From positions 58,092-122,091 of the IMG/VR virus record IMGVR_UViG_3300003690_003155: a stretch of 64,000 nt of DNA. The stretch is one strand, 5' to 3'. Numbering within the stretch: position 1 is the first letter of the stretch; every line of letters begins with the position of its first letter. Source of the stretch: a virus. Position numbers and translations under genes: made by a program. Below the pieces are notes generated by a model, which saw only the letters and a program-made list of their open reading frames with translations, made no database searches and had not been told where the DNA came from. This document shows, one piece after another, positions 5,886-64,000 of the stretch.

Positions 5886-7223
5886 TTACATTACTCTTCC
5901 GAATTGTACAGCGTCATTTTCCGCGGTATTAACATCTTCATTAATGTTTAAATCATTGCTCTCCATAAGAGTAAGAGTATTGTAATCTATAGAGATTCGA
6001 GTACTACCTGTATTAGAACCAAATCTATTTTTAATAATGCCCATATGTAGCGCATTATCTTCTTCATCTTCTTCTGTCCTCCAAATACTTACAATAACAT
6101 CCGCCGTTGCTCCTAATCCATAACTTTCTCCAATAGATTCTAATCCAGGAGCATTACCATATCCTGTTCTATTTACTTGTGTCGCGGATATGATGGGACA
6201 TTCAAAGGTATATGACATTGCTCTTACTTGTTCAGAAATACTTTTAACGCGTTCATATGAATTATTGCCATATGTACTTGCTAACAGATTTAAATAATCT
6301 AGTACTATAATGTCAGGTTTAAATTTGTTATTAATTAATTTTTTAATAAACCCTTCAAGTTGCGGAGGTGTAATAGAGCCAGGAGCAAATTCTTTAATTA
6401 TTATATTTGCTCTAGGATGTGTCATTTTAAATCTCCCTACTTTCTCTTTTAATGTTTCTATATGTTCATCTAAATGATTTATTGGAAGACCTGTAAGTTT
6501 TGATGTAATTCTCTTACAATAAATCATTTCAGACATTTCAAGAGAAACTACTAAAACATTTTTATCTGCTGCCGCGGCGTTACTTGCTATGTTACTTAAA
6601 AATATAGATTTACCTACATTAGTCGGGCCAGCAAAAATATACATACTACGCCCTAGCTCTAAAAATCCTCCTCCTAATCTAGCATCTAACCAATCCCATC
6701 CGGTTTTGATCTTTTCCTCACGTGTTGTTAAATCAATAACATGTTGCTCAATATCTTTAAAATAATTATGACCTATATTTGTAGTGAGAGAAATATTACA
6801 TGCTTTTGTAAATTTATCATGAATAGTTTTTACGTTTCTTTCTTTATTATCAACAATTTCTAAAAAGGTATTAAATACAGCTTGCTCTTGTAAAAACTTC
6901 TCTGTATAAGAGTATAAAACATCGTTTGATAAATCTATTTCTAAAGTATCAGTAATTTTTTTACTCGATTCATAATGTTGTTTAAGCTGAGGTGTATTTA
7001 AATATATTTCTAACTCTGTATGTGTTGGCCGTCTATTATTTTGTCGGTAAAGAGCTTGTATGATTTTAACTATTTGCTGAAAGTCTTTATTTTTAAAAAA
7101 TTTATAATTAAGATTATCAATAATAGAATTTAAATAAGCTTCGTCTTCAAGACAGTTCTTGAAAACTACCTTTTCTAAATATTCTAAATCGATGTCTAAG
7201 TAATTACTTTCGTTTGTCAGCAT
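5886..7223 (-). CDS. gp41: Replicative DnaB-like helicase (T4 gp41)
   Basis: Walker A GPTNVGKS, SLEMSE, VLDYLNL, SATQVNR, KNRFG. Confidence 0.95.
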   Translation of the reverse strand: MLTNESNYLDIDLEYLEKVVFKNCLEDEAYLNSIIDNLNYKFFKNKDFQQIVKIIQALYRQNNRRPTHTELEIYLNTPQLKQHYESSKKITDTLEIDLSNDVLYSYTEKFLQEQAVFNTFLEIVDNKERNVKTIHDKFTKACNISLTTNIGHNYFKDIEQHVIDLTTREEKIKTGWDWLDARLGGGFLELGRSMYIFAGPTNVGKSIFLSNIASNAAAADKNVLVVSLEMSEMIYCKRITSKLTGLPINHLDEHIETLKEKVGRFKMTHPRANIIIKEFAPGSITPPQLEGFIKKLINNKFKPDIIVLDYLNLLASTYGNNSYERVKSISEQVRAMSYTFECPIISATQVNRTGYGNAPGLESIGESYGLGATADVIVSIWRTEEDEEDNALHMGIIKNRFGSNTGSTRISIDYNTLTLMESNDLNINEDVNTAENDAVQFGRVM

Positions 7224-7905
7224 GTTTAACGAGAGTATTATAGAAGTAATCTTCTGATTTGCTATACTCCTCTGTGTGGTTGAGTAATCCCGGAGATTCG
7301 TGAATAACGTGAATAGGGGCAGTAATTAAGCGCAACCCAGCTAAATGACAGTCTAAACAAAATTTTAAATCATAATGATGAAATCCCTTCATATTAGTAT
7401 CAAATTTTATTTTTTTCTTTGCGATTGATTTAGTTCGGACAGCTAAGAATAGACCATCTAATAATATTACTTCTTTTGGTGTAAGTCCAAATATAGTTGT
7501 CGAATAGTCAGTATTATTTTGATAATGTGATACTACTCCAGATAGAGTTTCTTTTTTACATAAAAAATGCCATAAGCAAGGTCTTGTAACCTGTAATTTA
7601 CTGCCTCCTGCTAGACCGACTACATCAAATCCTTGCTTAAACAAATTACGAATTTCTGTTAAGAAGTTTATACTATCAATAAACACATCATCATGTATAA
7701 ATAAAATACAGTCATATTTCTTAAGGTTTTGTGATGTAAGATACTTATTATAAACAGCACATAAACCGTTAGTGTTGCTATATGTGGGTTCTAGATCAAA
7801 TGTGGTTACAGTATTATTTGCGTGTAAGGTGAGGCTTCTAGATAATCTAGTAGCTTTAAAGCTAGATTTATTACTCTGAGTTGCAACCGCTATTAAAGTT
7901 TTCAT
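7204..7905 (-). CDS. Glycosyltransferase (GT2-like, GT-A fold)
   Basis: FIHDDV motif, VVGLAG, LLDGLFLAV, FHHYDLKFCL, IHESPG. Confidence 0.8.
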   Translation of the reverse strand: MKTLIAVATQSNKSSFKATRLSRSLTLHANNTVTTFDLEPTYSNTNGLCAVYNKYLTSQNLKKYDCILFIHDDVFIDSINFLTEIRNLFKQGFDVVGLAGGSKLQVTRPCLWHFLCKKETLSGVVSHYQNNTDYSTTIFGLTPKEVILLDGLFLAVRTKSIAKKKIKFDTNMKGFHHYDLKFCLDCHLAGLRLITAPIHVIHESPGLLNHTEEYSKSEDYFYNTLVKHADKRK

Positions 7906-8540
7906 ATAAAAAAAGGTGAATTTAGTTTAAATTTTTCTTTTTCGAAAAATTCATTTTTAGTAAAATTAAATTCATATATTGTTCCTTCTTCCGCTACTTT
8001 CCAGCCAGGTATTTGTGCTGAACTAAATGACTTATCATCTGAAAATAATGTAGATCCAGACCTAAAAATACGTAATCTACCCATGTTTGGTTCATACATC
8101 CAGCATCCGAATGTTCCTTCAAGCTCTGATAGTGCATTTTTAATACCAGATATATATATCAATGGTAATATCACACTACTATCGACTTTATTTGTTTTAC
8201 TTTTAAGTTCATATTTTTCTTTTAATTCATTAAAGTTTTGTAATACTCCGTTATGTGCTAAATATGTATCTTTATATGTAAATGGGTGAGAAGTATCAAT
8301 ATTGAATGTTCTAATTTCTGATGTAGGAGATTGTACATGTCCTAGATAATATATACAAAAAGGATTTTCTTGTATAGGCTTATCGAAATCTTGTTCGTGT
8401 TTTGTTGCTACCTGAATGTTATTTTTCATCCCTCCAGGAAACACCTTTGTTATACTGCGTACAAAATTACCCCTTTCGGTATTTTTTGTATATAACTCTC
8501 TAAAAGTTTTAATATCCGTTGATCCAAAAATTCCGCACAT
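7902..8540 (-). CDS. Class II (Ntn) glutamine amidotransferase, stand-alone
   Basis: N-terminal MCGIFG nucleophile Cys, SHPF, LAHNGVL, VDS motifs. Confidence 0.9.
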   Translation of the reverse strand: MCGIFGSTDIKTFRELYTKNTERGNFVRSITKVFPGGMKNNIQVATKHEQDFDKPIQENPFCIYYLGHVQSPTSEIRTFNIDTSHPFTYKDTYLAHNGVLQNFNELKEKYELKSKTNKVDSSVILPLIYISGIKNALSELEGTFGCWMYEPNMGRLRIFRSGSTLFSDDKSFSSAQIPGWKVAEEGTIYEFNFTKNEFFEKEKFKLNSPFFI

Positions 8541-8541
8541 A

Positions 8542-9498
8542 TTATTTTAATTGTATGAACTTTGTGTCTTTAAAGCAAGTTAAATCCTTACCTCCTGCGT
8601 AAGAAATAGAGCTTCTAAGTGCCTGTTGTATTTCCTGTAATCGTACTTCATATTCTGGAGCAAGTTCTAAGTCAACTTGTTTACCTTCAACAAAATGTAA
8701 TCTATCTCCATTTTGTTTATATGAGGTACTGCCGTAATATTCTTTTGCACCACGTACGACTTTAGCAGGCGAATCTGCACACGGTGCAAAAAAAGAACCA
8801 GACATAACACAATCAGCTCCAGCAACTAATGCTTTTGCAATATCACCAAAATGCCTACAACCACCGTCAGCCATAATTTTAGCTGATGTTTTATGTGGAG
8901 CAATTTTAAGTAATGTTGAAAACATGGGTGTTCCGAACCCTGTTTTAAATCTAGTTGTACATATGACACCGGATCCAATTCCAACTTTAACTATATCTGC
9001 TCCTGCGTCTTGCAATTGCTTAAATCCTTCAACCGTACCTACGTTACCAGCAATAACTATTACATCTTCTTGAAGATAGTTCTTAATATATTTTATCATT
9101 GCTATCACTTTAATATGATGACCGTGGGCTACGTCAATTGTAATAATGTCAATTTTATAATTATTATCTATAATTGATTGTAAGTGTTGATATGACTCTT
9201 CATTTACTCCTATACTAGCACTCACACATTTACAATGGTAGTCATTAAGTCTTTGTACTGTTTCAAATACATCTTGAAATCGATGCATGATATAAAAATA
9301 ATTATCTCGATCTAATTGTTGGCATAAATTAGGATTTATTACTGTTTCCATATTAGATGGAACAATTGGTAATTCAAATTTCCATTTACCTAATTTAAAT
9401 GTAGTATCGGCTTGTTTTCTGGAGCCTAAAAGACTATACTTCGGTACTAAGAGTACATCAGAATAATCTAACTCCCCATGGAATGTCTGTTCGCTCAT
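8542..9498 (-). CDS. guaC: GMP reductase (Bacillus-type GuaC)
   Basis: LDYSDVLLVP, PSNMET, TIDVAHGH, KVGIGSGVICTT, ADGG, YYGSTS, VEGK, SSISYAGG; no CBS domains. Confidence 0.85.
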   Translation of the reverse strand: MSEQTFHGELDYSDVLLVPKYSLLGSRKQADTTFKLGKWKFELPIVPSNMETVINPNLCQQLDRDNYFYIMHRFQDVFETVQRLNDYHCKCVSASIGVNEESYQHLQSIIDNNYKIDIITIDVAHGHHIKVIAMIKYIKNYLQEDVIVIAGNVGTVEGFKQLQDAGADIVKVGIGSGVICTTRFKTGFGTPMFSTLLKIAPHKTSAKIMADGGCRHFGDIAKALVAGADCVMSGSFFAPCADSPAKVVRGAKEYYGSTSYKQNGDRLHFVEGKQVDLELAPEYEVRLQEIQQALRSSISYAGGKDLTCFKDTKFIQLK

Positions 9499-10162
9499 AT
9501 TCTATTGGGTCTTTCATTGCGTCATTGTCTAAAAATCCTTGTATACGAGAACTACATGCGGTACAATACCCGCATGCTAATTCTTTTCCTTCGTAACAAG
9601 TCCATGTGTCTTCAAATCTCACACCATTATCTAATCCTATATTAATAATTTCTTTTTTGGATAATTGCAATAATGGTGCTTCTATTTTAATTCTATTTTT
9701 ACGATTTAAAGCAGTTAAATTATTAATTTGTTCTAAAAATTCTATACTTCCGTCCCAATACCCCGCTTGACTATCTACAAGAGCTGATCCATGATATACT
9801 GTTTCTGCTCCAACAGCTTCAGCGTATGAACAGGCAATAGATAACATCATCATATTTCTAAAAGGTACATAATTAACAGTTTGTGCATCTCCTAAAACGT
9901 CTTTTGCGTGAGCGACTTTAATATTGTTGTTTGTTAAAGAGGAAGTATTAGCAATTTTTTTGAAAAATTGTATATCTAATATTTTATGTTGCTCAATATT
10001 ATCATAATTAATTAATTGGAAGCCGGCGAATTGGATTTCTTTGCGATGTTTTTGACCGTAATCAAAAGTTATTGCATATATATCATCATGCTGAGCTGAT
10101 ACCATGCTTAATATTACAGCACTGTCTAATCCTCCTGAAACTGGTATAACTGCTTTACTCAT
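9458..10162 (-). CDS. queC: 7-cyano-7-deazaguanine synthase
   Basis: SGGLDS PP-loop, FDYGQKH, YVPFRN, TWTCY...CGYCTAC zinc site. Confidence 0.95.
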   Translation of the reverse strand: MSKAVIPVSGGLDSAVILSMVSAQHDDIYAITFDYGQKHRKEIQFAGFQLINYDNIEQHKILDIQFFKKIANTSSLTNNNIKVAHAKDVLGDAQTVNYVPFRNMMMLSIACSYAEAVGAETVYHGSALVDSQAGYWDGSIEFLEQINNLTALNRKNRIKIEAPLLQLSKKEIINIGLDNGVRFEDTWTCYEGKELACGYCTACSSRIQGFLDNDAMKDPIEYERTDIPWGVRLF

Positions 10163-10943
10163 TTATTTGTAACTTAATAGTTTTAGGTTGTAATTTTTTA
10201 TATTGCTCATCCCATAAGTACTGGTATTTACCGCAATCTCTTGTCGTATGATAAGGTTTTATATGTTCATTATAATGTAAAATATAATCCTCGTGTTGTT
10301 CCATTAAATGACTATCCCGGCGATGATAAACATTAAATCTTGGCTCGAGATCTATATAATTTCCCTGGCAATATTCATTTATTATCCATTGATCATGCTT
10401 GTCGTCATTTTTCTTATGTAACTCTAAGCATGTTTGAGTAAATTTATTTTTTCGGAGCACCTCTAAATTCATCATTATAATTCCGCAGTTTCCTGACAGT
10501 TTTTTATTTTTATATTGCATAATGCTTATATTATCTACTACTTTATCTGAGGGACATGGTTTCAATGCAATACCGATATCTTTTGTATCCATTTTGTAAA
10601 TTTCTATTAAATCTAAATTTACAATTATATCAATATCTAAGTATAAAATTTTATCTTCATTAATAAGTTCCGGCATAAACAATCTTAACATTGTTGCTTC
10701 AGAGACATGATCTAATCCCGTATACTCACGACTCCATTTTTTAAAATACTCTTGAAATGAGAAATTATCAAAGTGTGAAATCCATTTATTTAAATTATCT
10801 ATTTTGTTTTTATTTTGTATATTATGAATAAGATGAACCGCGATTTCATGTTTTTTGTTTTTGTTTACAATTGAATTTATTACAACTGGTATAAATTCAA
10901 TTAATTTCTTATCACTACAAAAACAGATATTTATTTTACTCAT
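10155..10943 (-). CDS. Glycosyltransferase family 8
   Basis: LRLFMPEL, KILYLDIDII, NCGIIMMNL, HDQWIIN, ILHY..KP motifs. Confidence 0.85.
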   Translation of the reverse strand: MSKINICFCSDKKLIEFIPVVINSIVNKNKKHEIAVHLIHNIQNKNKIDNLNKWISHFDNFSFQEYFKKWSREYTGLDHVSEATMLRLFMPELINEDKILYLDIDIIVNLDLIEIYKMDTKDIGIALKPCPSDKVVDNISIMQYKNKKLSGNCGIIMMNLEVLRKNKFTQTCLELHKKNDDKHDQWIINEYCQGNYIDLEPRFNVYHRRDSHLMEQHEDYILHYNEHIKPYHTTRDCGKYQYLWDEQYKKLQPKTIKLQINE

Positions 10944-12051
10944 CTTGTTGGTCTAATATAGCAGTTTCATCTAATGATTTACCATATCGGTATTTTTCAT
11001 TTATAGATGATTCTATATTAGGTAAGATAGAATTCCACAGTTTTTCATCGTTGCGCCAATTTTTATAATATCCTAATTTTTTATCTCCCATGCTATATGT
11101 AGAACCGTTTTGTTGAATAATGCCATGAGCAACGGCTACCTCTTTTAAACCAGAATATTTTTCTAACCCGGTTTTAAAATTTAAATATGCTTCTGCTTGT
11201 AAAAACGCTGGTATGAATCTATTTTTTATAGTAAGCATTCGAAGAGTAACTCCTGAGTAATTTCTACTTTCTGTTAATGCTTCGTCGCTGTCATTTGAAG
11301 CATCAGTTCTTTCTTTCTTCGCTGCCATTTGGACTAATAAGGAGGCCATGTACATAGGACCCGAACCACCAGCTTGTTGCTTGACTAAGGTAGGATGGAG
11401 TGCACCAGGATCAGCATATGTGTGATTACTACATATAATAGTCGTACCAGTTACGGCAGCTTTAAATGTAATAATGCGCATCATGGATTTAAGCTGCTTA
11501 GCTCGGAGCCCCATGTCCATGGCTCCTTTATTAGCCTCAGCATCAGCAATTTCTTTTGATGATGCTAAATTTCCAAGAGAATCAATCGATATAATAAATT
11601 TTCCGTGAAGTTCTGGTTCTTCTTCAACCCCGTCTAAGAATGCAACGAGTTGATTACGACAGTTTTCAACAGTATCAACCGGAACATATTTTACATTTGA
11701 AACGTCAAGACCTACGTTTTCAGCTCCTTCTTTTTCAATAGCAATTTCAGTATCAAATATTACAGGAACCATTCCTTTTTCTTGAGCTTTAGCAAGAATT
11801 TTATTTAAAATAAAAGTTTTACCACATTGAGGCTCTCCAGCAAAAATTGTTATTCTTCCTTTTGGTACACCGCCATATAGTGAACCGGATAAAATTGAAT
11901 TTAATACTAAGCATCCGGTATCGATCCACTCAGTTACATTACTTAGCGTATTTTCTTCTAGAGTAGTTGCGTTTCTATTAAGCTTCTGTAATTTAGCAAA
12001 TGCTTTATCAACAAGAGTCTTATCGTACGCCTTTTCAGCATATTTTGACAT
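10936..12051 (-). CDS. uvsX: RecA-like recombinase UvsX
   Basis: IDTGCLVLN, GGVPKGRIT, GEPQCGKT Walker A, IDSLGNLAS, DMGLRAK. Confidence 0.92.
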   Translation of the reverse strand: MSKYAEKAYDKTLVDKAFAKLQKLNRNATTLEENTLSNVTEWIDTGCLVLNSILSGSLYGGVPKGRITIFAGEPQCGKTFILNKILAKAQEKGMVPVIFDTEIAIEKEGAENVGLDVSNVKYVPVDTVENCRNQLVAFLDGVEEEPELHGKFIISIDSLGNLASSKEIADAEANKGAMDMGLRAKQLKSMMRIITFKAAVTGTTIICSNHTYADPGALHPTLVKQQAGGSGPMYMASLLVQMAAKKERTDASNDSDEALTESRNYSGVTLRMLTIKNRFIPAFLQAEAYLNFKTGLEKYSGLKEVAVAHGIIQQNGSTYSMGDKKLGYYKNWRNDEKLWNSILPNIESSINEKYRYGKSLDETAILDQQDE

Positions 12052-15096: not shown

Positions 15097-15125
15097 AGTA
15101 TAATGAAAATTAAGAAAAAAATCAA
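15097..15125 (-). promoter_or_regulatory. Sigma70-like promoter TTGATT-N17-TATACT, 6 nt before the polymerase GTG
   Basis: Direct reading of the reverse strand. Confidence 0.65.
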
Positions 15126-16354
15126 CTGATTTCGTTTTTTAGATTAATTAATTTTCGGCGTTTATCTCCATATGGGAATGAGTAAAGCTCAGTATAAAAA
15201 TCAATATTATCTTCCATCCATCTATTGTTCATATATCCACGAGCTCTCTTAACTTCTTTTATATATTTCTTATAATCCTTAGTTAAATATTCTATTTTAT
15301 TCACCAAATCATCTCCAGTTTTAAATTTATGAAATGCGGAATCATATGTACATAAATCCTGACAAATGCACGGAATTCCAAAGGCACAAGATTCAATAAA
15401 TTTTAAATTACTCTTAGCTTTATTAAAATTACTATCTTCTAACGGTGCATAAAAAATAGTCGGATTAAATTTAGTAATATATTCTGGATAATCGACAAGA
15501 CTTGTCCATGTCCAATATTCGATTTTTTTTGTCTGAACTAAATCTCTAAGAGATAGAGGGAATCCTCCTACAAAAACCCATGTAAATTTATCTACAGTTT
15601 TTCTTATTGTATCAATAATGTGATGGAAATCATCTCGTTGTCCGACTTTGTTATCAACGTCAAAATGCGCACCACTTCCGCAATAAACAATACGAGGCTT
15701 ACTTTTATATTTTTGATAATTTTCGCGTATAGTATTAAAATTAAAAAATCGGTCCATCCAAAATTTAGGAATAAAATTAGGTATTATTGTAACGTTTTTA
15801 TTACCAGTTTTCTCAATATAATATTCTTTCATGAATTTATTTGTAACAGTAATTTCGTCGCACATTTGCATAATCTCCATACTTGTTTTTCTGATGTTTG
15901 GATCATCAAAAGCAAATTTAAATTTATTATAATCAGGAATATCTTCTTTAAAAATTATATCGTCAATTTCATATATAATTTTAAAGTTAAGTTCTTTGGA
16001 TAATTCTTTTAACCATTTTATATAACTAAATTGAGCGTCTGTAGCTTGTCTCTGTATGCGAACTGTCTTGACCCCTCTATAAAAGTTTTTATCTCCTATC
16101 ATTACAGTACCGCCTTGTACATTTACCTTGTTACCATAACAATTAAGTAGTAATTCAGGCCATATCATCCTCCAATGACCACACCCAGAATAATCAGCAT
16201 AAAAATTTAAACCACGCGGTAAATCTGGCGCCTTATGACCAATCTCGCTCGTCGCTATTTGAGGCGGAGTAGGTAGAGCATTTACAAGAGGGTTACTTAT
16301 TGACACCGGTGAAAACGGTAATCGGTTTGTTGTATACTGAAACGGTGTAATCAT
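15122..16354 (-). CDS. Glycosyltransferase (GT-B/GT4-like)
   Basis: SGCGHWRMIWP, IYEIDD, APLEDSNFNKAKSNLKFIE motifs. Confidence 0.8.
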   Translation of the reverse strand: MITPFQYTTNRLPFSPVSISNPLVNALPTPPQIATSEIGHKAPDLPRGLNFYADYSGCGHWRMIWPELLLNCYGNKVNVQGGTVMIGDKNFYRGVKTVRIQRQATDAQFSYIKWLKELSKELNFKIIYEIDDIIFKEDIPDYNKFKFAFDDPNIRKTSMEIMQMCDEITVTNKFMKEYYIEKTGNKNVTIIPNFIPKFWMDRFFNFNTIRENYQKYKSKPRIVYCGSGAHFDVDNKVGQRDDFHHIIDTIRKTVDKFTWVFVGGFPLSLRDLVQTKKIEYWTWTSLVDYPEYITKFNPTIFYAPLEDSNFNKAKSNLKFIESCAFGIPCICQDLCTYDSAFHKFKTGDDLVNKIEYLTKDYKKYIKEVKRARGYMNNRWMEDNIDFYTELYSFPYGDKRRKLINLKNEIS

Positions 16355-21513: not shown

Positions 21514-21547
21514 ATTATAGTCTTTTATTTGGAAAATCAACTAAATA
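21514..21547. promoter_or_regulatory. Back-to-back promoters: TTGATT-N15-TATAAT (minus, uvsY) and late TAAATA (plus, oxygenase)
   Basis: Direct reading; each element 5-6 nt from a start codon. Confidence 0.55.
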
Positions 21548-21552
21548 TATAT

Positions 21553-22395
21553 ATGAGTAACGCTCTAGAGCACATATTAAATAAAATTAACGAAGCTCAA
21601 TTAATTCAAGATCCATGGCCATATTTGTTCATCGAGGAGTATGTACCGGAGTCATTTTATAAAAAACTCATTAACGAAACCACTAGTATCCATTTCCAAA
21701 TTGGAGCGAGTCGTCGTCAAATACAAGAAGTATTAAATACCTGGTACGATATTTCCCCTATATCGAGTAATTATGGTGGTGAGACATTACAGGAGTATTG
21801 TGATATTGTTTCTAGTAAAGACTTGCAGGATGCTATTTACCTTAAATTTGCTGATTTTCTAAAAAAATATGGGCATGTTAATTATGTTAATAAGTCACAA
21901 GATATAGTTGGTGTTGTAACTGAATATGATGTTATAACTAGAGGGTGGAAATATCCAATACACTCAGATATAAAGAAAAAACTTTTTACTCATTTGCATT
22001 ACTTAGCGGTTGAAGGTGATGATAAATCTATAGGAACACGATTGTATCCTAATACAGGAAAAGGAAACTCATTAGATTTTGATAAAGATTGTTTGATGAC
22101 GCTACCTTATCTTCCTAATAGTGTATTAATATTTTGCCCGAGTAATGTGAACGAACATAGAACTAATCATGCAGTATGTCATAGATCTAAACAAACAAAC
22201 TATAGAAGATCTCTTCACACATTTTATCACTGTGAGTTCCCGGCACCACCATTAGATCAAATAGATAAATGGGCATTAGTACCTGAAAATAAAAATTTAG
22301 GATATTATTATACTGTTGAGAAGGAATATATGTACAATCGCTCTCGTCTCGCAAAAGAGCAAGTAAGTATATTTGGATCTGTTAAATTATTTTAA
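21553..22395 (+). CDS. 2OG-Fe(II) oxygenase family protein
   Basis: DPWPYL, HSD (HxD), GTRLY, distal NHAV and RRS; start moved to ATG 21553. Confidence 0.75.
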   Translation: MSNALEHILNKINEAQLIQDPWPYLFIEEYVPESFYKKLINETTSIHFQIGASRRQIQEVLNTWYDISPISSNYGGETLQEYCDIVSSKDLQDAIYLKFADFLKKYGHVNYVNKSQDIVGVVTEYDVITRGWKYPIHSDIKKKLFTHLHYLAVEGDDKSIGTRLYPNTGKGNSLDFDKDCLMTLPYLPNSVLIFCPSNVNEHRTNHAVCHRSKQTNYRRSLHTFYHCEFPAPPLDQIDKWALVPENKNLGYYYTVEKEYMYNRSRLAKEQVSIFGSVKLF

Positions 22396-23025
22396 GTCTC
22401 TTACAAAATCATAGAACTCTTGTCTCGTAAGATCTCCTTTATCTAAAAATGCACCTGACATTCTAGCAGTTTTCATTGTACTATTGTGCTTAACTCCTCT
22501 AACACACGCACACATATGATCTGCTTCTACTAGAACCGCAACTCCTTTATTTTGTTCAGCCACAAGATCAATGTGTTTATGAATTTGCATAGTTAAATTC
22601 TCTTGTACTTGTGGCCTACGCGCAAACCATTCAACGATTCTATTCAACTTACTGAGTCCGATAACCTTTCCTTCTTTACCAGGTATATAAGATACATGAG
22701 CAAAACCGACAAATGGTAAGTGATGATGAGAGCAAAAAGAATGTACTGTAATATTACCTTGAAAAACTAAACCATCGTACTTATCGACGTTATCAAACGC
22801 TGTTATTTTAGGAGGCTCGTTATAACACCCTTCCGCTAGGTCATTGACAAATGCTTTTGCCACCCGTCTCGGTGTGTCTGCGCTATTAGGATCGTTTCTC
22901 CAGTCGAACCCTAAGGCATCCATATATCCCTCGTACGCCTTTGCAGCGCTATTAATAATATTTTCTTTTTCTTCTCGAGTTCTAGGTCGATTTTGATTGG
23001 CGTATTGAAGTAAAACCTCATTCAT
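22387..23025 (-). CDS. folE: GTP cyclohydrolase I
   Basis: TPRRVAK, SFCSHHHLPF, GLSKLNRIV, RRPQVQE, HMCACVRGV. Confidence 0.95.
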   Translation of the reverse strand: MNEVLLQYANQNRPRTREEKENIINSAAKAYEGYMDALGFDWRNDPNSADTPRRVAKAFVNDLAEGCYNEPPKITAFDNVDKYDGLVFQGNITVHSFCSHHHLPFVGFAHVSYIPGKEGKVIGLSKLNRIVEWFARRPQVQENLTMQIHKHIDLVAEQNKGVAVLVEADHMCACVRGVKHNSTMKTARMSGAFLDKGDLTRQEFYDFVRDLK

Positions 23026-23032
23026 ATGAATC

Positions 23033-23071
23033 ATTATAATATAATTGAATTATAAATCAACTAATTAAATA
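23033..23071. promoter_or_regulatory. Back-to-back promoters: TTGATT-N16-TATAAT (minus, folE) and late TAAATA (plus)
   Basis: Direct reading. Confidence 0.6.
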
Positions 23072-23076
23072 ATTAT

Positions 23077-23985
23077 GTGGATTATGTTATTTTAAATAAT
23101 GGTTGTTCTTTTTCTGCAGATTGGTCTTCGCATCGATATGGCGATAAAATCGGTGAGGACCATATATTAAGTGAACGTGACCAATTTGGCCGACGTAATC
23201 GGCCCCCAAAAGTCGTGGCACGCTCAAAATCATGGAATTGGACTACGTATTGTAAATACTTATCTGGAAAAATATATAATATTGCGATGGGTGGTACAGG
23301 TATTGAATCAGATAGATTAGCTAGTTTTATTAATGACGTTGATACTGGGCGCACCCACCGTAAGAACCTATATACATTTCAGGACAATTTTGAACCGACG
23401 GTACCATCACCGGGTCCAGGTCAGCGTAACTCGATCCCAGCAGATCTTAAGTTAACACATTTTATTTATCAGCTGCCGTCATTATGTCGGCAAGTCATCC
23501 ATACAACATTAAATTATGAAGATTTTTTAAAGGCGCCTATAGGTTTACGTGAGGCGTGGGAGGATTATAGAAAATCTTTATCAGAGCCGTATGATCATGC
23601 AGCAGAAAAACATAAATTTAAAAACAAAGAAGATTTATGGCGCAATGTTGCAGCACAATCATCTAATTTAGAAAAATACGTAACAAAGGCATTAAGTTCA
23701 ATCCATGAAAGCGTAACCATGGTCCGGGAGAAATGGCCGGATATAAAAATTATACTATTAAAATATACACATTCACATGAAAATAATGGAGTAATAATGG
23801 AATTTAGTAAAGATTTTTATAAAAATGATGTACGTAAGTACTGTGATGATAATAATGTTACGTATATATATGAACATACCTTTAATACCAATTGGTTTGC
23901 CGAGCATGGGTTAGCAAATGACCGTCGCCACCCTAATGAAGCCGGAGCGAGACTTATAGCGAGTAAAGTTAAAGAATATTTATGA
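23077..23985 (+). CDS. SGNH-hydrolase-like hypothetical protein
   Basis: NNGCSFS (GDS-like block), NIAMGG, DRRHPNEAG (DxxH block). Confidence 0.55.
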   Translation: MDYVILNNGCSFSADWSSHRYGDKIGEDHILSERDQFGRRNRPPKVVARSKSWNWTTYCKYLSGKIYNIAMGGTGIESDRLASFINDVDTGRTHRKNLYTFQDNFEPTVPSPGPGQRNSIPADLKLTHFIYQLPSLCRQVIHTTLNYEDFLKAPIGLREAWEDYRKSLSEPYDHAAEKHKFKNKEDLWRNVAAQSSNLEKYVTKALSSIHESVTMVREKWPDIKIILLKYTHSHENNGVIMEFSKDFYKNDVRKYCDDNNVTYIYEHTFNTNWFAEHGLANDRRHPNEAGARLIASKVKEYL

Positions 23986-24101
23986 GAAAGATATGGTTTA
24001 AAATTAGAATTAGATATGCGCAATTAAAGCAGTGGCTTTATTGTAAAATTAAAAAAGTAAAAAACAAGCCTGATGATCCTAATATATATCCTTTTTGGTA
24101 G
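23982..24101 (+). CDS. Small basic protein, 39 aa
   Basis: Not in ORF track; ATGA overlap with upstream stop; MRKIWFKIRIRYAQLKQWLYCKIKKVKNKPDDPNIYPFW fills the gap. Confidence 0.55.
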   Translation: MRKIWFKIRIRYAQLKQWLYCKIKKVKNKPDDPNIYPFW

Positions 24102-24106
24102 TTAGC

Positions 24107-24851: not shown

Positions 24852-25352
24852 ATGAGTTTTATTAGTACGAAAATTCTTGAACTTGGTAGCTGTGCTTTTC
24901 GGCAACCTAATGCAGAATCTCACTGTAGATATCTACACGGTTATAGACTAACAGCTAAGTTTTGGTTTAAAGCTAACCAGTTAGATGAGAACAATTGGGT
25001 AGTAGATTTCGGCAGTCTCGGTCACTTAAAAAAGCTTCTTAAGGATCAATTTGATCACATTACAGTTATAGATAAAAATGATCCTTATATTGATAGTTTT
25101 AAAGGCCTCGCTGATGCCGGAGTATTAGATTTACGAGTAATGGATGGAGTTGGTATCGAAAAATTTGCTCAATATTGCTTTAAAGTAAGCAATGACTTTA
25201 TTTCAGAACAATCTGAAGGGAGATGTTGGGTGGATAAAGTTGAAGTTTTTGAACATGAAAACAATTCTGCTATATATACAGAGAATATTACTACTACGAT
25301 GAGATTTGCTGCTGATCCAGAAGCTGGATACCAAAACGCATGCGTTTGTTAA
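24852..25352 (+). CDS. queD: 6-carboxy-5,6,7,8-tetrahydropterin synthase
   Basis: HCRYLHGY, WVVDFG, FDH, VEVFEHENNSA. Confidence 0.9.
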   Translation: MSFISTKILELGSCAFRQPNAESHCRYLHGYRLTAKFWFKANQLDENNWVVDFGSLGHLKKLLKDQFDHITVIDKNDPYIDSFKGLADAGVLDLRVMDGVGIEKFAQYCFKVSNDFISEQSEGRCWVDKVEVFEHENNSAIYTENITTTMRFAADPEAGYQNACVC

Positions 25353-25356
25353 TGAA

Positions 25357-25521
25357 ATGGGTAAAGGAAGCAAAAGAAGACGCAAAGAGGATATAGGAGA
25401 AATTGTTTCCAATTGGGATGAAATCGATTGGGGATATATAATGTTTACTAAAGACGAAGAAGCCGAAAAAGAAAAAAATGAGCGAAAAGGAATCAGAGAT
25501 ACTAAACGTCGACGGAAATGA
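25357..25521 (+). CDS. Small hypothetical protein (MGKGSKRR...)
   Basis: ATG just after queD stop; highly charged 54 aa. Confidence 0.5.
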   Translation: MGKGSKRRRKEDIGEIVSNWDEIDWGYIMFTKDEEAEKEKNERKGIRDTKRRRK

Positions 25522-26248
25522 TACAATTTATCTATCAGATGATAAGATATTTTATACAGTAGAAGGAGAAGGCGAACTTATAGGCTACCCTTCTGTGTTT
25601 ATGCGACTTTCGATGTGTAACTTAACATGTCAAGGATTTGCGTCAGAAGCCTCACCTCATGGATGTGATAGTTTTATTTCTTGGAGGGTAAAAAACAAAC
25701 TTACATTAAAAGAGGTACTTGATTTTCTCGAGAGTAGTGGCTATAAAGATCATTTATACAACGGTGCTATATTAAAGATTACTGGAGGTGAGCCCTTAGT
25801 ACAGCAAAAGGCATTATTACGCTTTTTAAGTTATATGGAAGTTGAATGGGGATGGGTTCCTCGTATAGATTTTGAAACTAATGCAACTATTTTACCTGAT
25901 AAAGAATGGACGAGAGTAGCTGCTACGTTTACCACATCCCCTAAAATGAGTAATAATGGTGACCCTGTAGATAGACGATATAAACCTACAGTATTAGAGT
26001 GGCATGCTCTAATGGGATCTGGTTTTAAGTTTGTTATTAATCAAGAATCAGATATAGATGAAGTTTTTGGTAAATATGTTGTACCGTTTGATATACCTAC
26101 AGGCAGGGTATGGTTAATGCCTTGTTGCGGTAGTAGAGAAGAGCATATAGAAAAGGCTCCTATGGTTGCTGAACTAGCTAAGAGGTATAGATTTAACTTT
26201 AGCCCACGACTTCATTTATTAGTATGGGATATGGCTTTAAAAGTTTAA
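25478..26248 (+). CDS. queE: 7-carboxy-7-deazaguanine synthase (radical SAM)
   Basis: IFYTVEGEG, FMRLSMCNLTC...GCDS, ITGGEP, ETN, SPK, SPRLH. Confidence 0.92.
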   Translation: MSEKESEILNVDGNDTIYLSDDKIFYTVEGEGELIGYPSVFMRLSMCNLTCQGFASEASPHGCDSFISWRVKNKLTLKEVLDFLESSGYKDHLYNGAILKITGGEPLVQQKALLRFLSYMEVEWGWVPRIDFETNATILPDKEWTRVAATFTTSPKMSNNGDPVDRRYKPTVLEWHALMGSGFKFVINQESDIDEVFGKYVVPFDIPTGRVWLMPCCGSREEHIEKAPMVAELAKRYRFNFSPRLHLLVWDMALKV

Positions 26249-26265: not shown

Positions 26266-26949
26266 ATGAGAATTGCAATTAGCGGGACTGGGTGTCAAGG
26301 TAAAACTACTCTTATAAGAGATTTTCTTGATCAATGGCCTTCTTATACTACATCAAAAAAAACTTATAGAGATGTTATTAAAGACACCAACCTCTCTCAT
26401 TCATCAAAAACAAATGAAGACACACAATGGGATATTCTTAATTTTATGATTGATGAATTACAAAAAACTAAAAAAGGAGATAAAGTTATTTTCGATAGAT
26501 GTCCTTTAGATAATTTAGTTTATAGTATCTGGTCAAATGAAAAGAAGAATTCTGATATTACACAGAAATTTATTAAAAAGTGTATACCATTAGTTAGAGA
26601 AACCTTAAGATTTATTGATATTATATTTTTTACTCCCATTACTAAAGTAGCTCCCGTAGAAATAGAAGAAGATGAGTTAAGAGACTCTGATTTAGAGTTT
26701 ATAGAAGAAGTTGATCATTTATTTAAAGCAATTCATAGAGACCATCAGACTAATTCTAACAGTAATTTCTTTGTTGATGATGATAAGCCTGCTATGCTTG
26801 AAGTATTTGGAAATAGAAGAGAGCGTATAGAAATAATTAAATTATATCTTGACGAAGATGGTGACTTGATACAGCCAGGTAATATTATTGATGAAGAAAC
26901 ATTACATGAAATGGAAAAGATGAAGAAAGCCTTTAATGTAAAAGATTAA
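26266..26949 (+). CDS. P-loop kinase (AAA_28/NadR/dNMP kinase-like)
   Basis: GTGCQGKTT Walker A and FDRCPLD. Confidence 0.75.
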   Translation: MRIAISGTGCQGKTTLIRDFLDQWPSYTTSKKTYRDVIKDTNLSHSSKTNEDTQWDILNFMIDELQKTKKGDKVIFDRCPLDNLVYSIWSNEKKNSDITQKFIKKCIPLVRETLRFIDIIFFTPITKVAPVEIEEDELRDSDLEFIEEVDHLFKAIHRDHQTNSNSNFFVDDDKPAMLEVFGNRRERIEIIKLYLDEDGDLIQPGNIIDEETLHEMEKMKKAFNVKD

Positions 26950-62211: not shown

Positions 62212-63825
62212 ATGAACGAAACTAAAATACGTCCTAATACGGATTATATAGATAATAATAGAGCGGAGCGATTGTTGGAGAAGTGGAGTCCAGTTTTGGA
62301 CTATACCTCTGACAAAGTTTCACCTATTGAGAACCCGCATACGCGGGTGAACACCGCCATTCTTCTTGAGAACCAAGAACAATGGTGTATAAGGGAAGGT
62401 AACCAAGCAGGTGGCACTGCAACAAGTGCGTTTGGTACCGGAGTGGATAATATCGCGCAGGGTGGTAGCGGAAGCTACGGCTCTGGTGATACATATGCTC
62501 AGAACGATGCACGTTTGCCGAAGATTCTTATTCCGATGATTCGCCGTACATTCCCCGAGTTGATTACTAACGAGATCGTTGGTGTTCAGCCGATGAGTGG
62601 ACCGGTTGGTCTGGCGTTTGCTCTTCGCTACAAGTATTCTGACACTGGCATTGACGGTGTTGTGCATACTGTTGGTGAAAACGGTGTTGGTCAAGGCCAT
62701 CATGTTGAGGCTTCTTTGACCGCTGGTACGAAAGCTAAAGGTTCGTCCGGCGCACCTACTGGTGAGTTAGGTCACAACGTTGTCGAAACTGAGTATACCG
62801 GTATTTCTGGTACTTCCGGGGAAAATACGGTTGAAGGTGTGTCGAAAGACTTCGGTCCAGATGGTACTGATACATCTACGATATCGACATTATTTGCTGA
62901 TGAAGGTGTTGCTACAGACGGCGTCACCAGTGCTGGTTCAAGTGGCCGCTGGGTCACAGGTGGTTACTCCGATGAAGATACTGGTTTTGCTGCAGCTTTG
63001 GCAAGTTTTGAACTTGACAATGCTAAGAATGCTGGTACTGTTGAGTTGAGCTTCGAGAAGACAGCTGTTGAGGCTGGTACTCGCAGGCTGAACGCTCGCT
63101 GGTCAGTCGAGTTAGAGCAGGATCTTAAGAATATGAATGGTATTGATGTTGACGCTGAGTTGACAAATGCTATGTCATATGAGATTCAAGCTGAAATCGA
63201 TCGTGAGATGATCATTCGCATGGTCCAGGCTGCGTTGCAGGCTGGCGGCGGAGTTGGTTATTCGGTTTGGCAGTCTGCGAAGGCAGATGCTCGTTGGTTA
63301 GCTGAGAGAAATCGTGATTTCTATCAGAAGTTGATCGTCGAGGCTAACAGGATGGCTGTTCGCAATCGTCGGGGTTCTGCTAACTTTGTTGTTGCTACAC
63401 CTCGTGTCTGTGCTCTTCTTGAGATGCTCCCTGAGTTCTCTTGGATGACAGTTGACGGAAACGTTAACTCGCAACCGGTTGGTGTTGCTAAGGTTGGTAA
63501 CGTTGGTGGACGTTTTAACATCTACCGCGATACCCGCACCGAGGCGCAGAACTTAGGTACTGCGGATGAGTATTCGAAGATTGAGTATGCGTTACTTGGT
63601 TATAAAGGTCCTGAGTATTATGATACTGGTATCATTTACTGTCCTTATATCCCGGTGATGGTGCAGAGGTCTATTGATCCTAATTCCTTCTATCCGAAGG
63701 TCGGTATGTTAACACGTTACGGCGTTGTTGATCACCTCTTTGGTGCTTCAAACTACTACCATGTAGTGTTTGTGAAGGGACTTGGTCAAGATATAGCCAA
63801 TGCATCCACACATGTCTATTCGTAA
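62212..63825 (+). CDS. gp23: Major capsid protein (gp23)
   Basis: LLEKWSPVL, AILLENQ, IRRTFP, GVQPMSGPVGLAFALR, ELEQDLK, EIQAEIDRE, YCPYIP, TRYG. Confidence 0.97.
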   Translation: MNETKIRPNTDYIDNNRAERLLEKWSPVLDYTSDKVSPIENPHTRVNTAILLENQEQWCIREGNQAGGTATSAFGTGVDNIAQGGSGSYGSGDTYAQNDARLPKILIPMIRRTFPELITNEIVGVQPMSGPVGLAFALRYKYSDTGIDGVVHTVGENGVGQGHHVEASLTAGTKAKGSSGAPTGELGHNVVETEYTGISGTSGENTVEGVSKDFGPDGTDTSTISTLFADEGVATDGVTSAGSSGRWVTGGYSDEDTGFAAALASFELDNAKNAGTVELSFEKTAVEAGTRRLNARWSVELEQDLKNMNGIDVDAELTNAMSYEIQAEIDREMIIRMVQAALQAGGGVGYSVWQSAKADARWLAERNRDFYQKLIVEANRMAVRNRRGSANFVVATPRVCALLEMLPEFSWMTVDGNVNSQPVGVAKVGNVGGRFNIYRDTRTEAQNLGTADEYSKIEYALLGYKGPEYYDTGIIYCPYIPVMVQRSIDPNSFYPKVGMLTRYGVVDHLFGASNYYHVVFVKGLGQDIANASTHVYS

Positions 63826-63844
63826 TCTTTAACAGATTATATGC

Positions 63845-63874
63845 AAAGAGCGTCCGAAAGGGCGCTCTTTTTTT
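63845..63874 (+). terminator. Rho-independent terminator after gp23 (possibly bidirectional)
   Basis: AAAGAGCGTCC-GAAA-GGGCGCTCTTT stem-loop followed by T-run, between convergent gp23 and queF. Confidence 0.9.
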
Positions 63875-64000
63875 ATTGTCTAATGGTCTTAATCCACGGG
63901 ATAGTTTCATCCCACATCATATCATCAATTAGGTCTATTTTATTAGCTCTAACTGGATTAATATCCCATCCACCTCTCCTTGTATACAAACATGCAACCA
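63873..64000 (-). CDS. queF: PreQ0 reductase QueF, C-terminal fragment (gene enters from beyond the window)
   Basis: Manual translation: VACLYTRRGGWDINPVRANKIDLIDDMMWDETIPWIKTIRQ*, matching the YTRRGGLDINP...RQ C-terminus of E. coli-type QueF. Confidence 0.85.
   Translation of the reverse strand, partial: VACLYTRRGGWDINPVRANKIDLIDDMMWDETIPWIKTIRQ

What the first reader, a model, noticed from the sequence alone, without database searches (positions are those of the whole stretch)
7204..10943. Candidate new hypermodified 7-deazaguanine system: GT8-queC-guaC-Gat-GT2 cassette wedged between uvsX and the gp41 helicase
Seen: five co-oriented, overlapping or abutting genes inside the core replication operon: a GT8, QueC, GMP reductase, a stand-alone Ntn glutamine amidotransferase and a GT2-like enzyme. 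Known: QueC makes preQ0; Gat-QueC fusions are linked to archaeosine (G+) synthesis; T-even phages put their DNA glucosyltransferases among replication genes. Inference: this is a split Gat/QueC flanked by glycosyltransferases and co-expressed with replication, which suggests a 7-deazaguanine DNA base that is further decorated, possibly glycosylated. I do not know of such a base in phage DNA. The main glycan island is 17 kb away, so the placement of these two GTs looks deliberate.
Basis: partly seen in the sequence, partly recalled or inferred. Interest (0 to 1): 0.82.

Follow-up and report, generated by a model that had tools for sequence, protein, structure and literature searches.

The report
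Deazaguanine DNA genes beside unrelated sugar transferases
An uncultured marine T4-like phage carries a complete, already described kind of pathway for swapping the guanine in its DNA for a modified 7-deazaguanine, and the two sugar-transferase genes next to part of it are most likely bystanders.

Summary
The five genes are real: GT8, QueC, GMP-reductase-like, a stand-alone Ntn amidotransferase (Gat) and a GT2-like gene (GT2L) sit overlapping or abutting between uvsX and the gp41-type helicase.

They are only part of the system. The window also holds FolE, QueD and QueE. [quoted passage not shown] That phage's DNA is reported to carry formyl-preQ1 in place of G. The best reading is a DpdA3/fdPreQ1-type system whose QueC has a split glutaminase partner, as in Vibrio phages.

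- **GT8:** a strain-level insert, found in 1 of 56 distinct assessable relatives and absent from a complete genome of the same group.
- **GuaC:** lineage-variable, between QueC and Gat in 16 of 56.
- **GT2L:** follows Gat in 78 of 82 relatives. In one related 64-kb fragment it keeps its slot although every pathway gene searched is missing. It also belongs to a large family whose fused forms carry TPR or GT41 domains.

A sugar-bearing deazaguanine is therefore unlikely, about 10%. This scan flagged the same block three times before on other DNA.

The parts
10155..10943 (-). GT8-family glycosyltransferase. A strain-level insert at the uvsX|queC junction, not a conserved part of the system.
   Evidence: PF01501 3.5e-28. 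Present in 1 of 56 distinct assessable relatives. No homologue in the complete relative G011, nor at that site in G006, G007 or G008.
9458..10162 (-). QueC (7-cyano-7-deazaguanine synthase, a PP-loop ATPase).
   Evidence: PF06508 3e-58. TIGR00364 173.6 bits, above the cut-off of 150.3. Nearest cultured-phage homologues are Vibrio T4-like phages at 36-39% identity. Found upstream of GT2L in 53 of 56 relatives.
8542..9498 (-). GMP-reductase-like enzyme (GuaC). It is lineage-variable. Inferred role: purine-pool balancing.
   Evidence: PF00478 2.6e-60. NF003966 309.6 bits, below the cut-off of 344. Lies between QueC and Gat in 16 of 56 relatives. In G006 it sits inside the DpdA3-QueF cluster, and G007 has none. 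Homologues occur in many large phages; of these only Stenotrophomonas RAS14 was inspected, and it shows no annotated que gene nearby.
7902..8540 (-). Stand-alone class II (Ntn) glutamine amidotransferase, inferred to be the glutaminase partner of QueC.
   Evidence: PF13522 2.4e-10. phrog_12378, the family of nt-1 ORF392. The N-terminal MCGI motif and the R-G, H-N-G and D columns are invariant in 16 sequences. The same QueC-Gat pairing occurs in Vibrio phage records: 59 records match Gat, and QueC adjacency was inspected in nt-1, 2.275.O and 6E35.1a.
7204..7905 (-). GT2-like (PF13712) GT-A-type glycosyltransferase, called GT2L here. It usually follows Gat but is probably functionally independent.
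   Evidence: PF13712 1.4e-14. An H-x-D motif is invariant. Gat lies upstream in 78 of 82 distinct relatives. GT2L is retained before gp41 in G021, where no pathway gene is found. The family has 3147 representatives at E<=1e-3, and fused forms carry TPR or GT41 domains. No homologue in 50,697 phage records.
22387..23034 (-). FolE (GTP cyclohydrolase I), the first step of preQ0 synthesis.
   Evidence: PF01227 1.6e-47. phrog_2197 1.8e-59.
24852..25352 (+). QueD (6-carboxytetrahydropterin synthase).
   Evidence: PF01242 3.1e-17. phrog_2389 2.7e-35.
25478..26248 (+). QueE (7-carboxy-7-deazaguanine synthase, radical SAM).
   Evidence: phrog_2076 2.8e-41. Weak hits to five NCBIfam QueE models.
26266..26949 (+). 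AAA_28 / nucleotide-kinase-like gene next to QueE. Its role is unknown, and it also persists where the pathway is absent.
   Evidence: PF13521 1.6e-13. phrog_2107 'thymidylate kinase' 1.7e-15. Conserved next to QueE in G006, G007 and G011. Present in G021, which lacks FolE, QueD and QueE.
10936..12051 (-). UvsX-like recombinase (upstream flank).
   Evidence: phrog_97 1.6e-58.
5886..7223 (-). DnaB/gp41-like replicative helicase (downstream flank).
   Evidence: phrog_19 6.8e-78.
62612..64000 (+). Window end (3' part of the gp23 capsid gene) that overlaps contig L031. L031 carries QueF, a kinase, a 116-aa ORF, a DpdN-like formyltransferase and DpdA3, all outside the window.
   Evidence: 0 mismatches in the 1,389-nt overlap. 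QueF: PF14819 1.9e-32. Formyltransferase: PF00551 1.4e-10. DpdA3-like protein is 45% identical to the immuto_2-6A 'DNA guanine transglycosylase', E 3e-54.

Best explanation
QueC and Gat are one step of a complete DpdA3-type 7-deazaguanine DNA-modification system that is spread over three places in a roughly 200-kb T4-like phage genome.

Inferred pathway:
1. FolE, QueD and QueE turn GTP into 7-carboxy-7-deazaguanine.
2. QueC converts that to preQ0, with ammonia supplied by the stand-alone glutaminase Gat.
3. QueF reduces preQ0 to preQ1.
4. DpdA3 exchanges guanine in the phage DNA for the deazaguanine base.
5. The DpdN-like formyltransferase caps the amine, giving formyl-preQ1 (fdPreQ1), probably at most or all G positions. 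This would protect the DNA from restriction.

The other three genes:
- GuaC is a lineage-variable purine-pool enzyme. It may drain the guanine released by base exchange; this is inference.
- GT8 is a strain-level insert.
- The GT2-like gene usually lies upstream of the helicase and probably acts on a non-DNA acceptor.

Shown here: gene identities, gene order, homology and distribution. Inferred: every chemical step and the final base.
For: [quoted passage not shown]

**The rest of the pathway lies just past the window.** Contig L031 matches the window's last 1,389 nt with 0 mismatches. It continues with bimodular QueF, an AAA_28 kinase, a 116-aa ORF, a PF00551 formyltransferase and a 279-aa DpdA3-like protein.

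**DpdA3 identity.** That protein hits the immuto_2-6A 'DNA guanine transglycosylase' (45% identity, E 3e-54), Campylobacter phage CP220-group proteins (about 38%, E about 1e-38) and phiST CGPG_00065 (E 1e-11).

**Same gene order as the characterised phage.** immuto_2-6A has DpdA, a formyltransferase, a thymidylate-kinase-like gene and QueF in the same order. Its DNA is reported as fully fdPreQ1-substituted (PMC10516641, section 18 read).

**Complete relatives carry the full set.** G011 (200,819 bp, terminal repeats), G006 and G007 each hold all of these genes.

**Gat looks like an active partner of QueC.** Its catalytic-type residues are invariant. QueC-Gat pairs occur in Vibrio phages. One of them, 6E35.1a, also has QueF and is reported to carry dPreQ1, not G+ (PMC12028318, passage read).

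**GT8 and GuaC are variable**.

**GT2L looks independent.**
- It is retained in G021, which has no hit for any pathway gene.
- It sits at three other unlinked sites.
- Unlinked copies are nested among linked ones in the tree.
- It has no homologue in immuto_2-6A or in any of 50,697 phage records.
- Fused family members carry TPR or GT41 domains.
Against: - No chemistry was measured, so the final base is inferred from gene content only.
- QueF, DpdN and DpdA3 are not on the record that holds the window. Their presence in this phage rests on an identical 1,389-nt overlap with another contig and on relatives.
- immuto_2-6A makes fdPreQ1 without any Gat, so Gat's role here is not established. In phage 9g a fused Gat-QueC is linked to dG+ (PMC6884629).
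- GT2L abuts or follows Gat in 78 of 82 distinct relatives.
- In the G016/G017 lineage GT2L left the helicase together with QueC-Gat and now sits beside QueD-QueE and DUF366, while uvsX abuts gp41. That is what a functional link would predict.
- G021 is only 31% complete, so its pathway genes could lie elsewhere.
- GuaC sits among deazaguanine genes in at least two different arrangements. A purely general role does not require this.
Confidence: 0.68

Rival explanations
1. One reading: the GT2-like enzyme (with or without GT8) adds a sugar to the 7-deazaguanine base in DNA, giving a new glycosylated hypermodified base.
For: - GT2L follows Gat in 78 of 82 distinct relatives, and abuts it within 30 nt in 59 of them.
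- The QueC-Gat-GT2L trio moved together to a different genomic site in the G016/G017 lineage.
- GT2L overlaps Gat by 4 nt and is co-oriented with the replication genes.
- G020, which has an unlinked GT2L, still has DpdA3.
- No paper describing such a base was found: 4 papers hold all four search terms, seen as a listing only.
Against: - G021 keeps GT2L before gp41 while FolE, QueD, QueE, QueC, Gat, QueF, DpdN and DpdA3 give no hit.
- Four unlinked placements exist among 82.
- The system encodes a formyltransferase that would cap the only obvious acceptor amine.
- Cultured phages with the same pathways lack GT2L.
- The family is very large, and its fused members carry TPR or GT41 modules. From recalled knowledge these are typical of protein glycosylation.
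- GT8 is present in 1 of 56 relatives.
Confidence: 0.1
2. QueC plus Gat act as a split archaeosine synthase, so the DNA base is dG+ as in phage 9g.
For: - Fused Gat-QueC with DpdA gives dG+ in E. coli (PMC6884629, passages read).
- The QueC here is 33% identical to the QueC domain of the PSTCR4 Gat-QueC (E 5e-28).
- Gat aligns colinearly with its N-domain (E 0.012).
Against: - QueF and a DpdN-like formyltransferase are conserved in the same genomes. They point to a preQ1-derived base.
- Vibrio phage 6E35.1a has the same QueC + Gat + QueF set and is reported to carry dPreQ1 (PMC12028318).
- nt-1, with QueC + Gat, has only about 0.02% dG+ (PMC6884629).
- The transglycosylase here is DpdA3, not the 9g type.
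Confidence: 0.1
3. The genes only boost host queuosine or purine metabolism (auxiliary metabolic genes) and the phage DNA is unmodified.
For: - Hutinet et al. 2019 raise this possibility for phages that have preQ0 genes but no DpdA (PMC6884629, section 8 read).
- No DpdA lies on the 122-kb record that holds the window.
Against: - A DpdA3 homologue lies on the contig that continues the window, and in the three complete relatives G006, G007 and G011.
- The PF01702 negatives are uninformative. The same search also misses DpdA2 in nt-1 and DpdA3 in phiST.
Confidence: 0.04

Closest known systems
[quoted passage not shown] 2023, PMC10516641)
   Same: All seven functions have homologues here: DpdA3 45%, DpdN 42%, QueF 46% and FolE 55% identity. 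The sub-cluster order DpdA3, formyltransferase, kinase-like, QueF is the same.
   Different: - The genes here are split over three loci inside a distantly related T4-like genome.
- QueC is of the Vibrio-phage type and has a separate Gat partner.
- immuto_2-6A has no homologue of Gat, GT2L, GuaC, GT8, the second kinase or DUF366 (the first 160,000 of 160,410 nt were searched).
- The base is measured there and only predicted here.
QueC + stand-alone Ntn amidotransferase pair of Vibrio T4-like phages (nt-1, KVP40, 6E35.1a)
   Same: These are the nearest cultured-phage homologues of both QueC (36-39% identity) and Gat (about 25-35%). The two genes are adjacent in the same order in the three records inspected: nt-1, 2.275.O and 6E35.1a.
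   Different: The Vibrio phages use DpdA2 and show partial modification: 0.1% dPreQ0 in nt-1 (PMC6884629) and 15% dPreQ1 in 6E351A (PMC12028318). No match to GT2L was found in any phage record. The small protein is annotated 'hypothetical' in those records.
Gat-QueC / DpdA1 deoxyarchaeosine system of Enterobacteria phage 9g
   Same: It combines a class II amidotransferase with QueC chemistry, the preQ0 genes and a DNA transglycosylase.
   Different: There the two domains are fused and the product is dG+. Here they are separate genes, QueF and a formyltransferase are present, and the transglycosylase is DpdA3.
T-even DNA glucosyltransferases (T4 alpha- and beta-GT)
   Same: Glycosyltransferase genes sit among early/replication genes of a T4-like phage.
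   Different: No ThyA or hydroxymethylase-like protein was found with the immuto ThyA as query in the window's record, G006, G007 or G011. GT2L and GT8 belong to Pfam families PF13712 and PF01501. From recall, the T4 enzymes are GT-B fold proteins acting on hydroxymethylcytosine.

Membership tests
DpdA3-type 7-deazaguanine DNA modification (fdPreQ1 kind) | A DpdA3-family DNA guanine transglycosylase | tested here: met
   It is not in the window or on its record. It is on contig L031, which is identical over the 1,389-nt overlap. That protein is 45% identical to immuto_2-6A DpdA (E 3e-54) and hits phiST CGPG_00065 at E 1e-11. It is also present in G006, G007 and G011.
DpdA3-type 7-deazaguanine DNA modification (fdPreQ1 kind) | Complete preQ0 synthesis set (FolE, QueD, QueE, QueC) | tested here: met
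   All four are in the window.
DpdA3-type 7-deazaguanine DNA modification (fdPreQ1 kind) | QueF (preQ0 reductase) and a DpdN-type formyltransferase | tested here: met
   L031 QueF: PF14819 1.9e-32 and PF14489 2.6e-18. L031 formyltransferase: PF00551 1.4e-10. They are 46% and 42% identical to the immuto proteins.
DpdA3-type 7-deazaguanine DNA modification (fdPreQ1 kind) | The modified nucleoside is present in virion DNA | not testable with these tools
   This needs LC-MS/MS or raw-signal sequencing data. The phage is uncultured.
Gat-QueC archaeosine (dG+) synthase | Class II amidotransferase domain fused N-terminally to QueC in one protein | tested here: not met
   These are two separate genes in the order QueC then Gat. 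GuaC lies between them in this phage.
Gat-QueC archaeosine (dG+) synthase | Gat homologous to the Gat domain of the fused enzymes | tested here: inconclusive
   BLASTP against PSTCR4 Gat-QueC gives E 0.012 and 20% identity, colinear over residues 1-148. PHROG hits to the N-terminal parts of longer 'aminotransferase' families reach 5.9e-09.
Class II (Ntn) glutamine amidotransferase | N-terminal catalytic Cys after Met, plus conserved Arg, Asn-Gly and Asp (the motif is recalled) | tested here: met
   M1, C2, R23, G24, H96, N97, G98 and D120 are invariant in 16 sequences. PF13522 2.4e-10.
GMP reductase (GuaC) | Score above the curated equivalog cut-off | tested here: inconclusive
   NF003966 gives 309.6 bits against 344, and TIGR01306 gives 279.8 against 465.65. 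The protein is 318 aa and the match spans the full length of the model. The substrate was not tested.
GT8 (PF01501) and Glyco_tranf_2_5 (PF13712) glycosyltransferases | Pfam score above the gathering cut-off | tested here: met
   GT8 scores 99.3 bits against 24.3. GT2L scores 54.8 bits against 27.
T-even-type DNA glucosyltransferase system | A hydroxymethyl-pyrimidine pathway that provides the acceptor base | tested here: not met
   phmmer with immuto ThyA found nothing better than E 0.7 in the window's record, G006, G007 or G011. This is a limited test; ThyX-type enzymes were not searched.

The most novel reading that the evidence does not exclude
The GT2-like enzyme, which follows Gat in 78 of 82 relatives and moved with QueC-Gat in one rearranged lineage, adds a sugar to a preQ1-type base, or to a precursor of it. 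In that case the DNA of these marine T4-like phages would carry a glycosylated 7-deazaguanine that has not been described.
Probability: 0.1. Interest if true: 0.85.

Novelty: new variant of a known kind. Interest (0 to 1): 0.35.

Why it matters
**Reach of the system.** The finding places the DpdA3/formyl-preQ1 kind of DNA modification in a widespread, uncultured clade of roughly 200-kb marine T4-like phages. In the papers read here it was described in one Flavobacterium phage. Hundreds of related contigs were found.

**Role of the small amidotransferase.** The gene next to QueC is annotated 'hypothetical' in cultured Vibrio phages. Here it appears as a conserved partner of QueC that is compatible with preQ1-type products, not only with archaeosine.

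**Lessons for later scans.**
- The standard TGT model (PF01702) misses phage DpdA2 and DpdA3, so its absence in a search should not be read as absence of DNA modification.
- Tight gene linkage (78 of 82) can coexist with a relative that keeps the linked gene after losing the pathway.

**Practical consequence.** If G is fully replaced, these phages' DNA would resist many restriction enzymes. It could also bias sequencing-based surveys.

Tried and rejected
**DpdA searches on the window's record and five related fragments.**
- PF01702, the nt-1 DpdA2 protein and the phiST DpdA3 protein all came back negative.
- I rejected these as evidence of absence. The same PF01702 search finds nothing in the nt-1 and phiST records themselves.
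- phmmer with DpdA2 and DpdA3 against all ORFs of three genomes gave only noise.

**Candidate DpdA among unknown ORFs near FolE/QueD.** Window ORFs 21529-22395 and 24095-24802 showed no similarity to phiST DpdA3. Their phage hits were none or irrelevant. Pfam and PHROG scans of the variable ORFs in G006 and G007 were uninformative.

**Similarity searches that found little.**
- blastn of the cassette against phage records found no match.
- tblastn of GT2L against phage records found no match.
- The PDB profile search for GT2L returned only an uncharacterised Rhodobacter 'ORF 6' protein.
- The ESM Atlas returned only PF13712 viral clusters.

**GuaC link to que genes in other large phages.** The Stenotrophomonas phage RAS14 neighbourhood shows nothing.

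**DUF366.** The literature search matched other DUF numbers. The only PDB hit is a hypothetical protein.

**Tools and papers not available.**
- Structure prediction was not accepted three times.
- Complex prediction of QueC with Gat was not available.
- The 2024 MMBR review is not held.
- Supplementary tables of the two deazaguanine papers were not seen. They may already list the Vibrio-phage Gat or related marine contigs.

Full report
**1. Observation**

The window is part of a 122,091-bp IMG/VR virus record that CheckV estimates to be 61% complete. The phage is T4-like, with gp32, gp41, UvsX, gp43, gp46/47, gp20 and gp23 homologues, and has about 30% G+C.

They overlap or abut each other and their flanks. 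Family assignments are confirmed:
- GT8: PF01501, 3.5e-28.
- QueC: PF06508, 3e-58, and it passes TIGR00364.
- A GMP-reductase-like protein whose best model is NF003966, at 309.6 bits, below the cut-off of 344.
- A class II amidotransferase: PF13522, 2.4e-10.
- A PF13712 glycosyltransferase-like protein, called GT2L here, at 1.4e-14.

No minus-strand terminator-like site lies between 3000 and 16500.

**2. The rest of the pathway**

The window also encodes FolE (22387-23034), QueD (24852-25352) and QueE (25478-26248). An AAA_28 kinase-like gene follows QueE. This is the whole preQ0 pathway.

No transglycosylase was found on the record with PF01702, nt-1 DpdA2 or phiST DpdA3. That negative is worthless for PF01702. 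The same six-frame search finds nothing in the nt-1 and phiST records, which are the type records for DpdA2 and DpdA3.

Earlier notes of this scan on other DNA suggested an fdPreQ1-type system, and I tested that:
- A Pfam QueF search found bimodular QueF in two complete relatives, G006 (229,717 bp) and G007 (224,703 bp, terminal repeats).
- In both, QueF lies in a cluster with a kinase-like gene, a formyltransferase and a 268-274-aa protein.
- Contig L031 overlaps the last 1,389 nt of the window with 0 mismatches. Directly after the capsid gene it continues with QueF, an AAA_28 kinase, a 116-aa ORF, a PF00551 formyltransferase and a 279-aa protein.
- G011, a complete 200,819-bp genome with terminal repeats and 79% GT2L identity, carries the entire set.

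immuto_2-6A has the same local order: DpdA, formyltransferase, thymidylate-kinase-like, QueF. Its DNA is reported to have dG fully replaced by formyl-preQ1 (PMC10516641, section 18 read). The same paper calls DpdA3 the subfamily that gives complete replacement (passages read).

**3. QueC and Gat**

The closest cultured-phage homologues of both QueC (36-39% identity) and Gat (about 25-35%) are in Vibrio T4-like phages. In the three records inspected (nt-1, 2.275.O and 6E35.1a) the two genes are adjacent in the same order, and there the small protein is labelled 'hypothetical' or 'nucleophile aminohydrolase'.

Gat keeps its N-terminal Met-Cys. The Arg-Gly, His-Asn-Gly and Asp columns are invariant in 16 diverse sequences. 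I recall these as the class II glutaminase hallmarks.

QueC aligns with the QueC domain of a fused Gat-QueC from Providencia phage PSTCR4 (E 5e-28). Gat aligns colinearly with its N-domain, but weakly (E 0.012). 'Split Gat/QueC' is therefore a fair description.

It does not follow that the product is archaeosine:
- Vibrio phage 6E35.1a has QueD, FolE, a tgt-like gene, QueF, QueC and a Gat homologue in a row (Gat BLASTP E 2e-12). Mass spectrometry there is reported to show 15% dPreQ1 (PMC12028318, passage read).
- nt-1 carries mostly dPreQ0 and only traces of dG+ (PMC6884629, passages read).

I infer that Gat feeds ammonia from glutamine to QueC. This is the same domain logic as asparagine synthetase (recalled). 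The complex predictor was not available to test contact.

**4. Which of the five genes are conserved**

I collected relatives with Gat, with a GT2L alignment, with an alignment of more distant GT2L representatives and with one outlier GT2L. These searches keep only the best 80 of 484 and 557 hits, so they lean towards close relatives.

In the loci of the first three searches, 150 hold GT2L and 99 GT2L nucleotide sequences are distinct. Of these, 82 have at least 700 nt upstream and can be assessed:

| Feature | Count |
|---|---|
| Gat upstream of GT2L | 78 of 82 |
| Gat within 30 nt of GT2L | 59 of 82 |
| QueC further upstream | 53 of 56 with enough flank |
| GuaC between QueC and Gat | 16 of 56 |
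| GT8 present | 1 of 56 |
| gp41 next after GT2L | 63 of 73 |

- **GT8:** absent from G011 and from the corresponding site in G006, G007 and G008. It is a strain-level insert.
- **GuaC:** absent from that site in G006, G007 and G008. In G006 it lies inside the DpdA3-QueF cluster instead, and G007 has none. GMP-reductase homologues occur in many large phages. The one neighbourhood I looked at shows no link to que genes. A role in rebalancing purines after massive guanine release by DpdA3 is my inference, not a result.

**5. The GT2-like gene**

*For a link with the pathway:*
- The adjacency counts above.
- The G016/G017 lineage, where the polymerase is followed by DpdA3, the formyltransferase, the kinase and QueF, and then UvsX directly abuts gp41. 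There QueC, Gat, two small ORFs and GT2L sit together beside QueD-QueE, the other kinase and a DUF366 gene. GT2L therefore moved with QueC-Gat and did not stay with the helicase.
- G020, one of the lineages with an unlinked GT2L, still has DpdA3.

*Against a link:*
- GT2L sits without Gat or QueC nearby at four kinds of site: next to a baseplate hub gene (L254), between gp47- and gp46-like genes (L279/L282), between dUTPase and the clamp loader (L288/L292), and before gp41 behind two unrelated small ORFs (L259).
- In a maximum-likelihood tree these copies are scattered among linked ones. L254 is nested with the window's own clade at 97/92 support.
- G021 is a 63,968-bp fragment that is 31% complete. 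It has the GT1-like gene, polymerase, UvsX, an opposite-strand ORF, GT2L, a 197-aa ORF, gp41, DHH and gp32, and also the kinase-PhoH pair.
- In G021, tblastn at E<=1e-3 finds no FolE, QueD, QueE, QueC, Gat, QueF, formyltransferase, DpdA3, GuaC or DUF366. Both slots that hold pathway genes in G000, G006, G007 and G011 are empty there, yet GT2L is in place. This confirms what two earlier notes of the scan reported on other DNA.
- GT2L has no homologue in 50,697 phage records. These include the Vibrio phages with QueC-Gat and immuto_2-6A, whose base is known.
- The family is large: 3147 representatives at E<=1e-3 in 1.84 billion proteins. Of 21 longer members scanned, four carry TPR repeats and one a GT41 domain. 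I recall these modules as typical of protein glycosyltransferases.
- The only solved relative by sequence is an uncharacterised Rhodobacter protein.
- The formyltransferase would occupy the obvious acceptor amine.
- No thymidylate-synthase/hydroxymethylase-like gene was found that could supply a T-even-type acceptor (a limited test).

On balance I put a DNA-base role for GT2L at about 10%.

**6. Comparison with what is known, and novelty**

The system is a member of the DpdA3 kind, closest to the fdPreQ1 system. It differs in being split over three loci of a T4-like genome, in using a Vibrio-phage-type QueC with a separate glutaminase, and in lineage-specific additions (GuaC).

In the passages I read, neither PMC6884629 nor PMC10516641 discusses a stand-alone Gat. 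A full-text search for deazaguanine, glycosyltransferase, phage and DpdA gave four papers, none of which by title describes a glycosylated deazaguanine (listing only).

This scan flagged the same block three times before on other genomes. My results agree with the two notes that judged the transferase independent. They also reproduce the rearranged-lineage linkage stressed by the third.

**7. Limits**
- No chemistry was measured.
- QueF, DpdN and DpdA3 are assigned to this phage through an identical overlap with another contig and through relatives.
- G021 is a fragment.
- The relative sets were chosen by similarity and are biased towards close kin.

Noticed in passing
window 15122-16354 (-): A 410-aa glycosyltransferase-like gene (phrog_7162 3.7e-22; weak GT1/GT4 Pfam hits) sits between the gp46-like gene and the DNA polymerase. 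It holds that place in every lineage examined, including G021, which shows no deazaguanine genes. Its only cultured-phage homologues are distant actinophage glycosyltransferases (8 records).
   Followed up: partly
window 26266-26949 (+) and L031:2187-2765 (-): Two AAA_28 / nucleotide-kinase-like paralogues (about 24-27% identical) sit inside the two deazaguanine clusters. One of them has a counterpart annotated 'thymidylate kinase' at the same position in immuto_2-6A. Their substrate is unknown. The QueE-side copy persists in G021 without FolE, QueD or QueE.
   Followed up: partly
window 51545-52132 (+): A DUF366 (PF04017, 4.6e-21) protein. In the G016/G017 lineage its homologue lies directly after GT2L in the consolidated QueD-QueE-QueC-Gat-GT2L cluster. 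It is present in G006 and G011 and absent from G007, G021 and immuto_2-6A. The only PDB relative is a hypothetical Pyrococcus protein (2ddz).
   Followed up: partly
window 27980-50791: A very large glycan island of about 23 kb. It holds UDP-GlcNAc 2-epimerase, GDP-mannose 4,6-dehydratase, several epimerase/reductase genes, cytidylyltransferases, GT2, GT10-like and GT25-like transferases, a methyltransferase and a radical SAM/SPASM protein. A sulfotransferase lies just beyond it, at 50852-51514. More sugar genes lie on the other half of the record (NTP transferase, dehydratase).
   Followed up: no
window 59912-60373 (+): A TnsA-endonuclease-N-like protein (PF08722, 3.8e-16) is inserted among the head-morphogenesis genes, between the portal-side genes and the prohead protease. 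Homologues lie at other positions in G006 and G007, as expected of a mobile nuclease.
   Followed up: no
window 23077-23985 (+) and 24095-24802 (+): Two paralogous ORFs of unknown function (25% identical to each other; one has a weak GDSL-hydrolase-like C-terminus) fill the gap between FolE and QueD. G006 and G007 hold unrelated ORFs (441 and 336 aa) at that spot, so it is a variable slot inside the preQ0 cluster.
   Followed up: partly
L114:8364-9242 (+), L116:7748-8620 (+), L115:10509-11519 (-), L115:12274-12798 (-): In the more distant relatives G006, G007 and G008, opposite-strand ORFs of unknown function (290-336 aa; one is a DUF5856 protein) are inserted between QueC, Gat and GT2L.
   Followed up: partly
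method note (records NC_021529.2 and NC_020842.1): A six-frame search with the Pfam TGT model PF01702 at E<=10 finds neither DpdA2 of Vibrio phage nt-1 nor DpdA3 of Cellulophaga phage phiST. 'No tgt/dpdA' calls based on that model are therefore unreliable for phages.
   Followed up: yes
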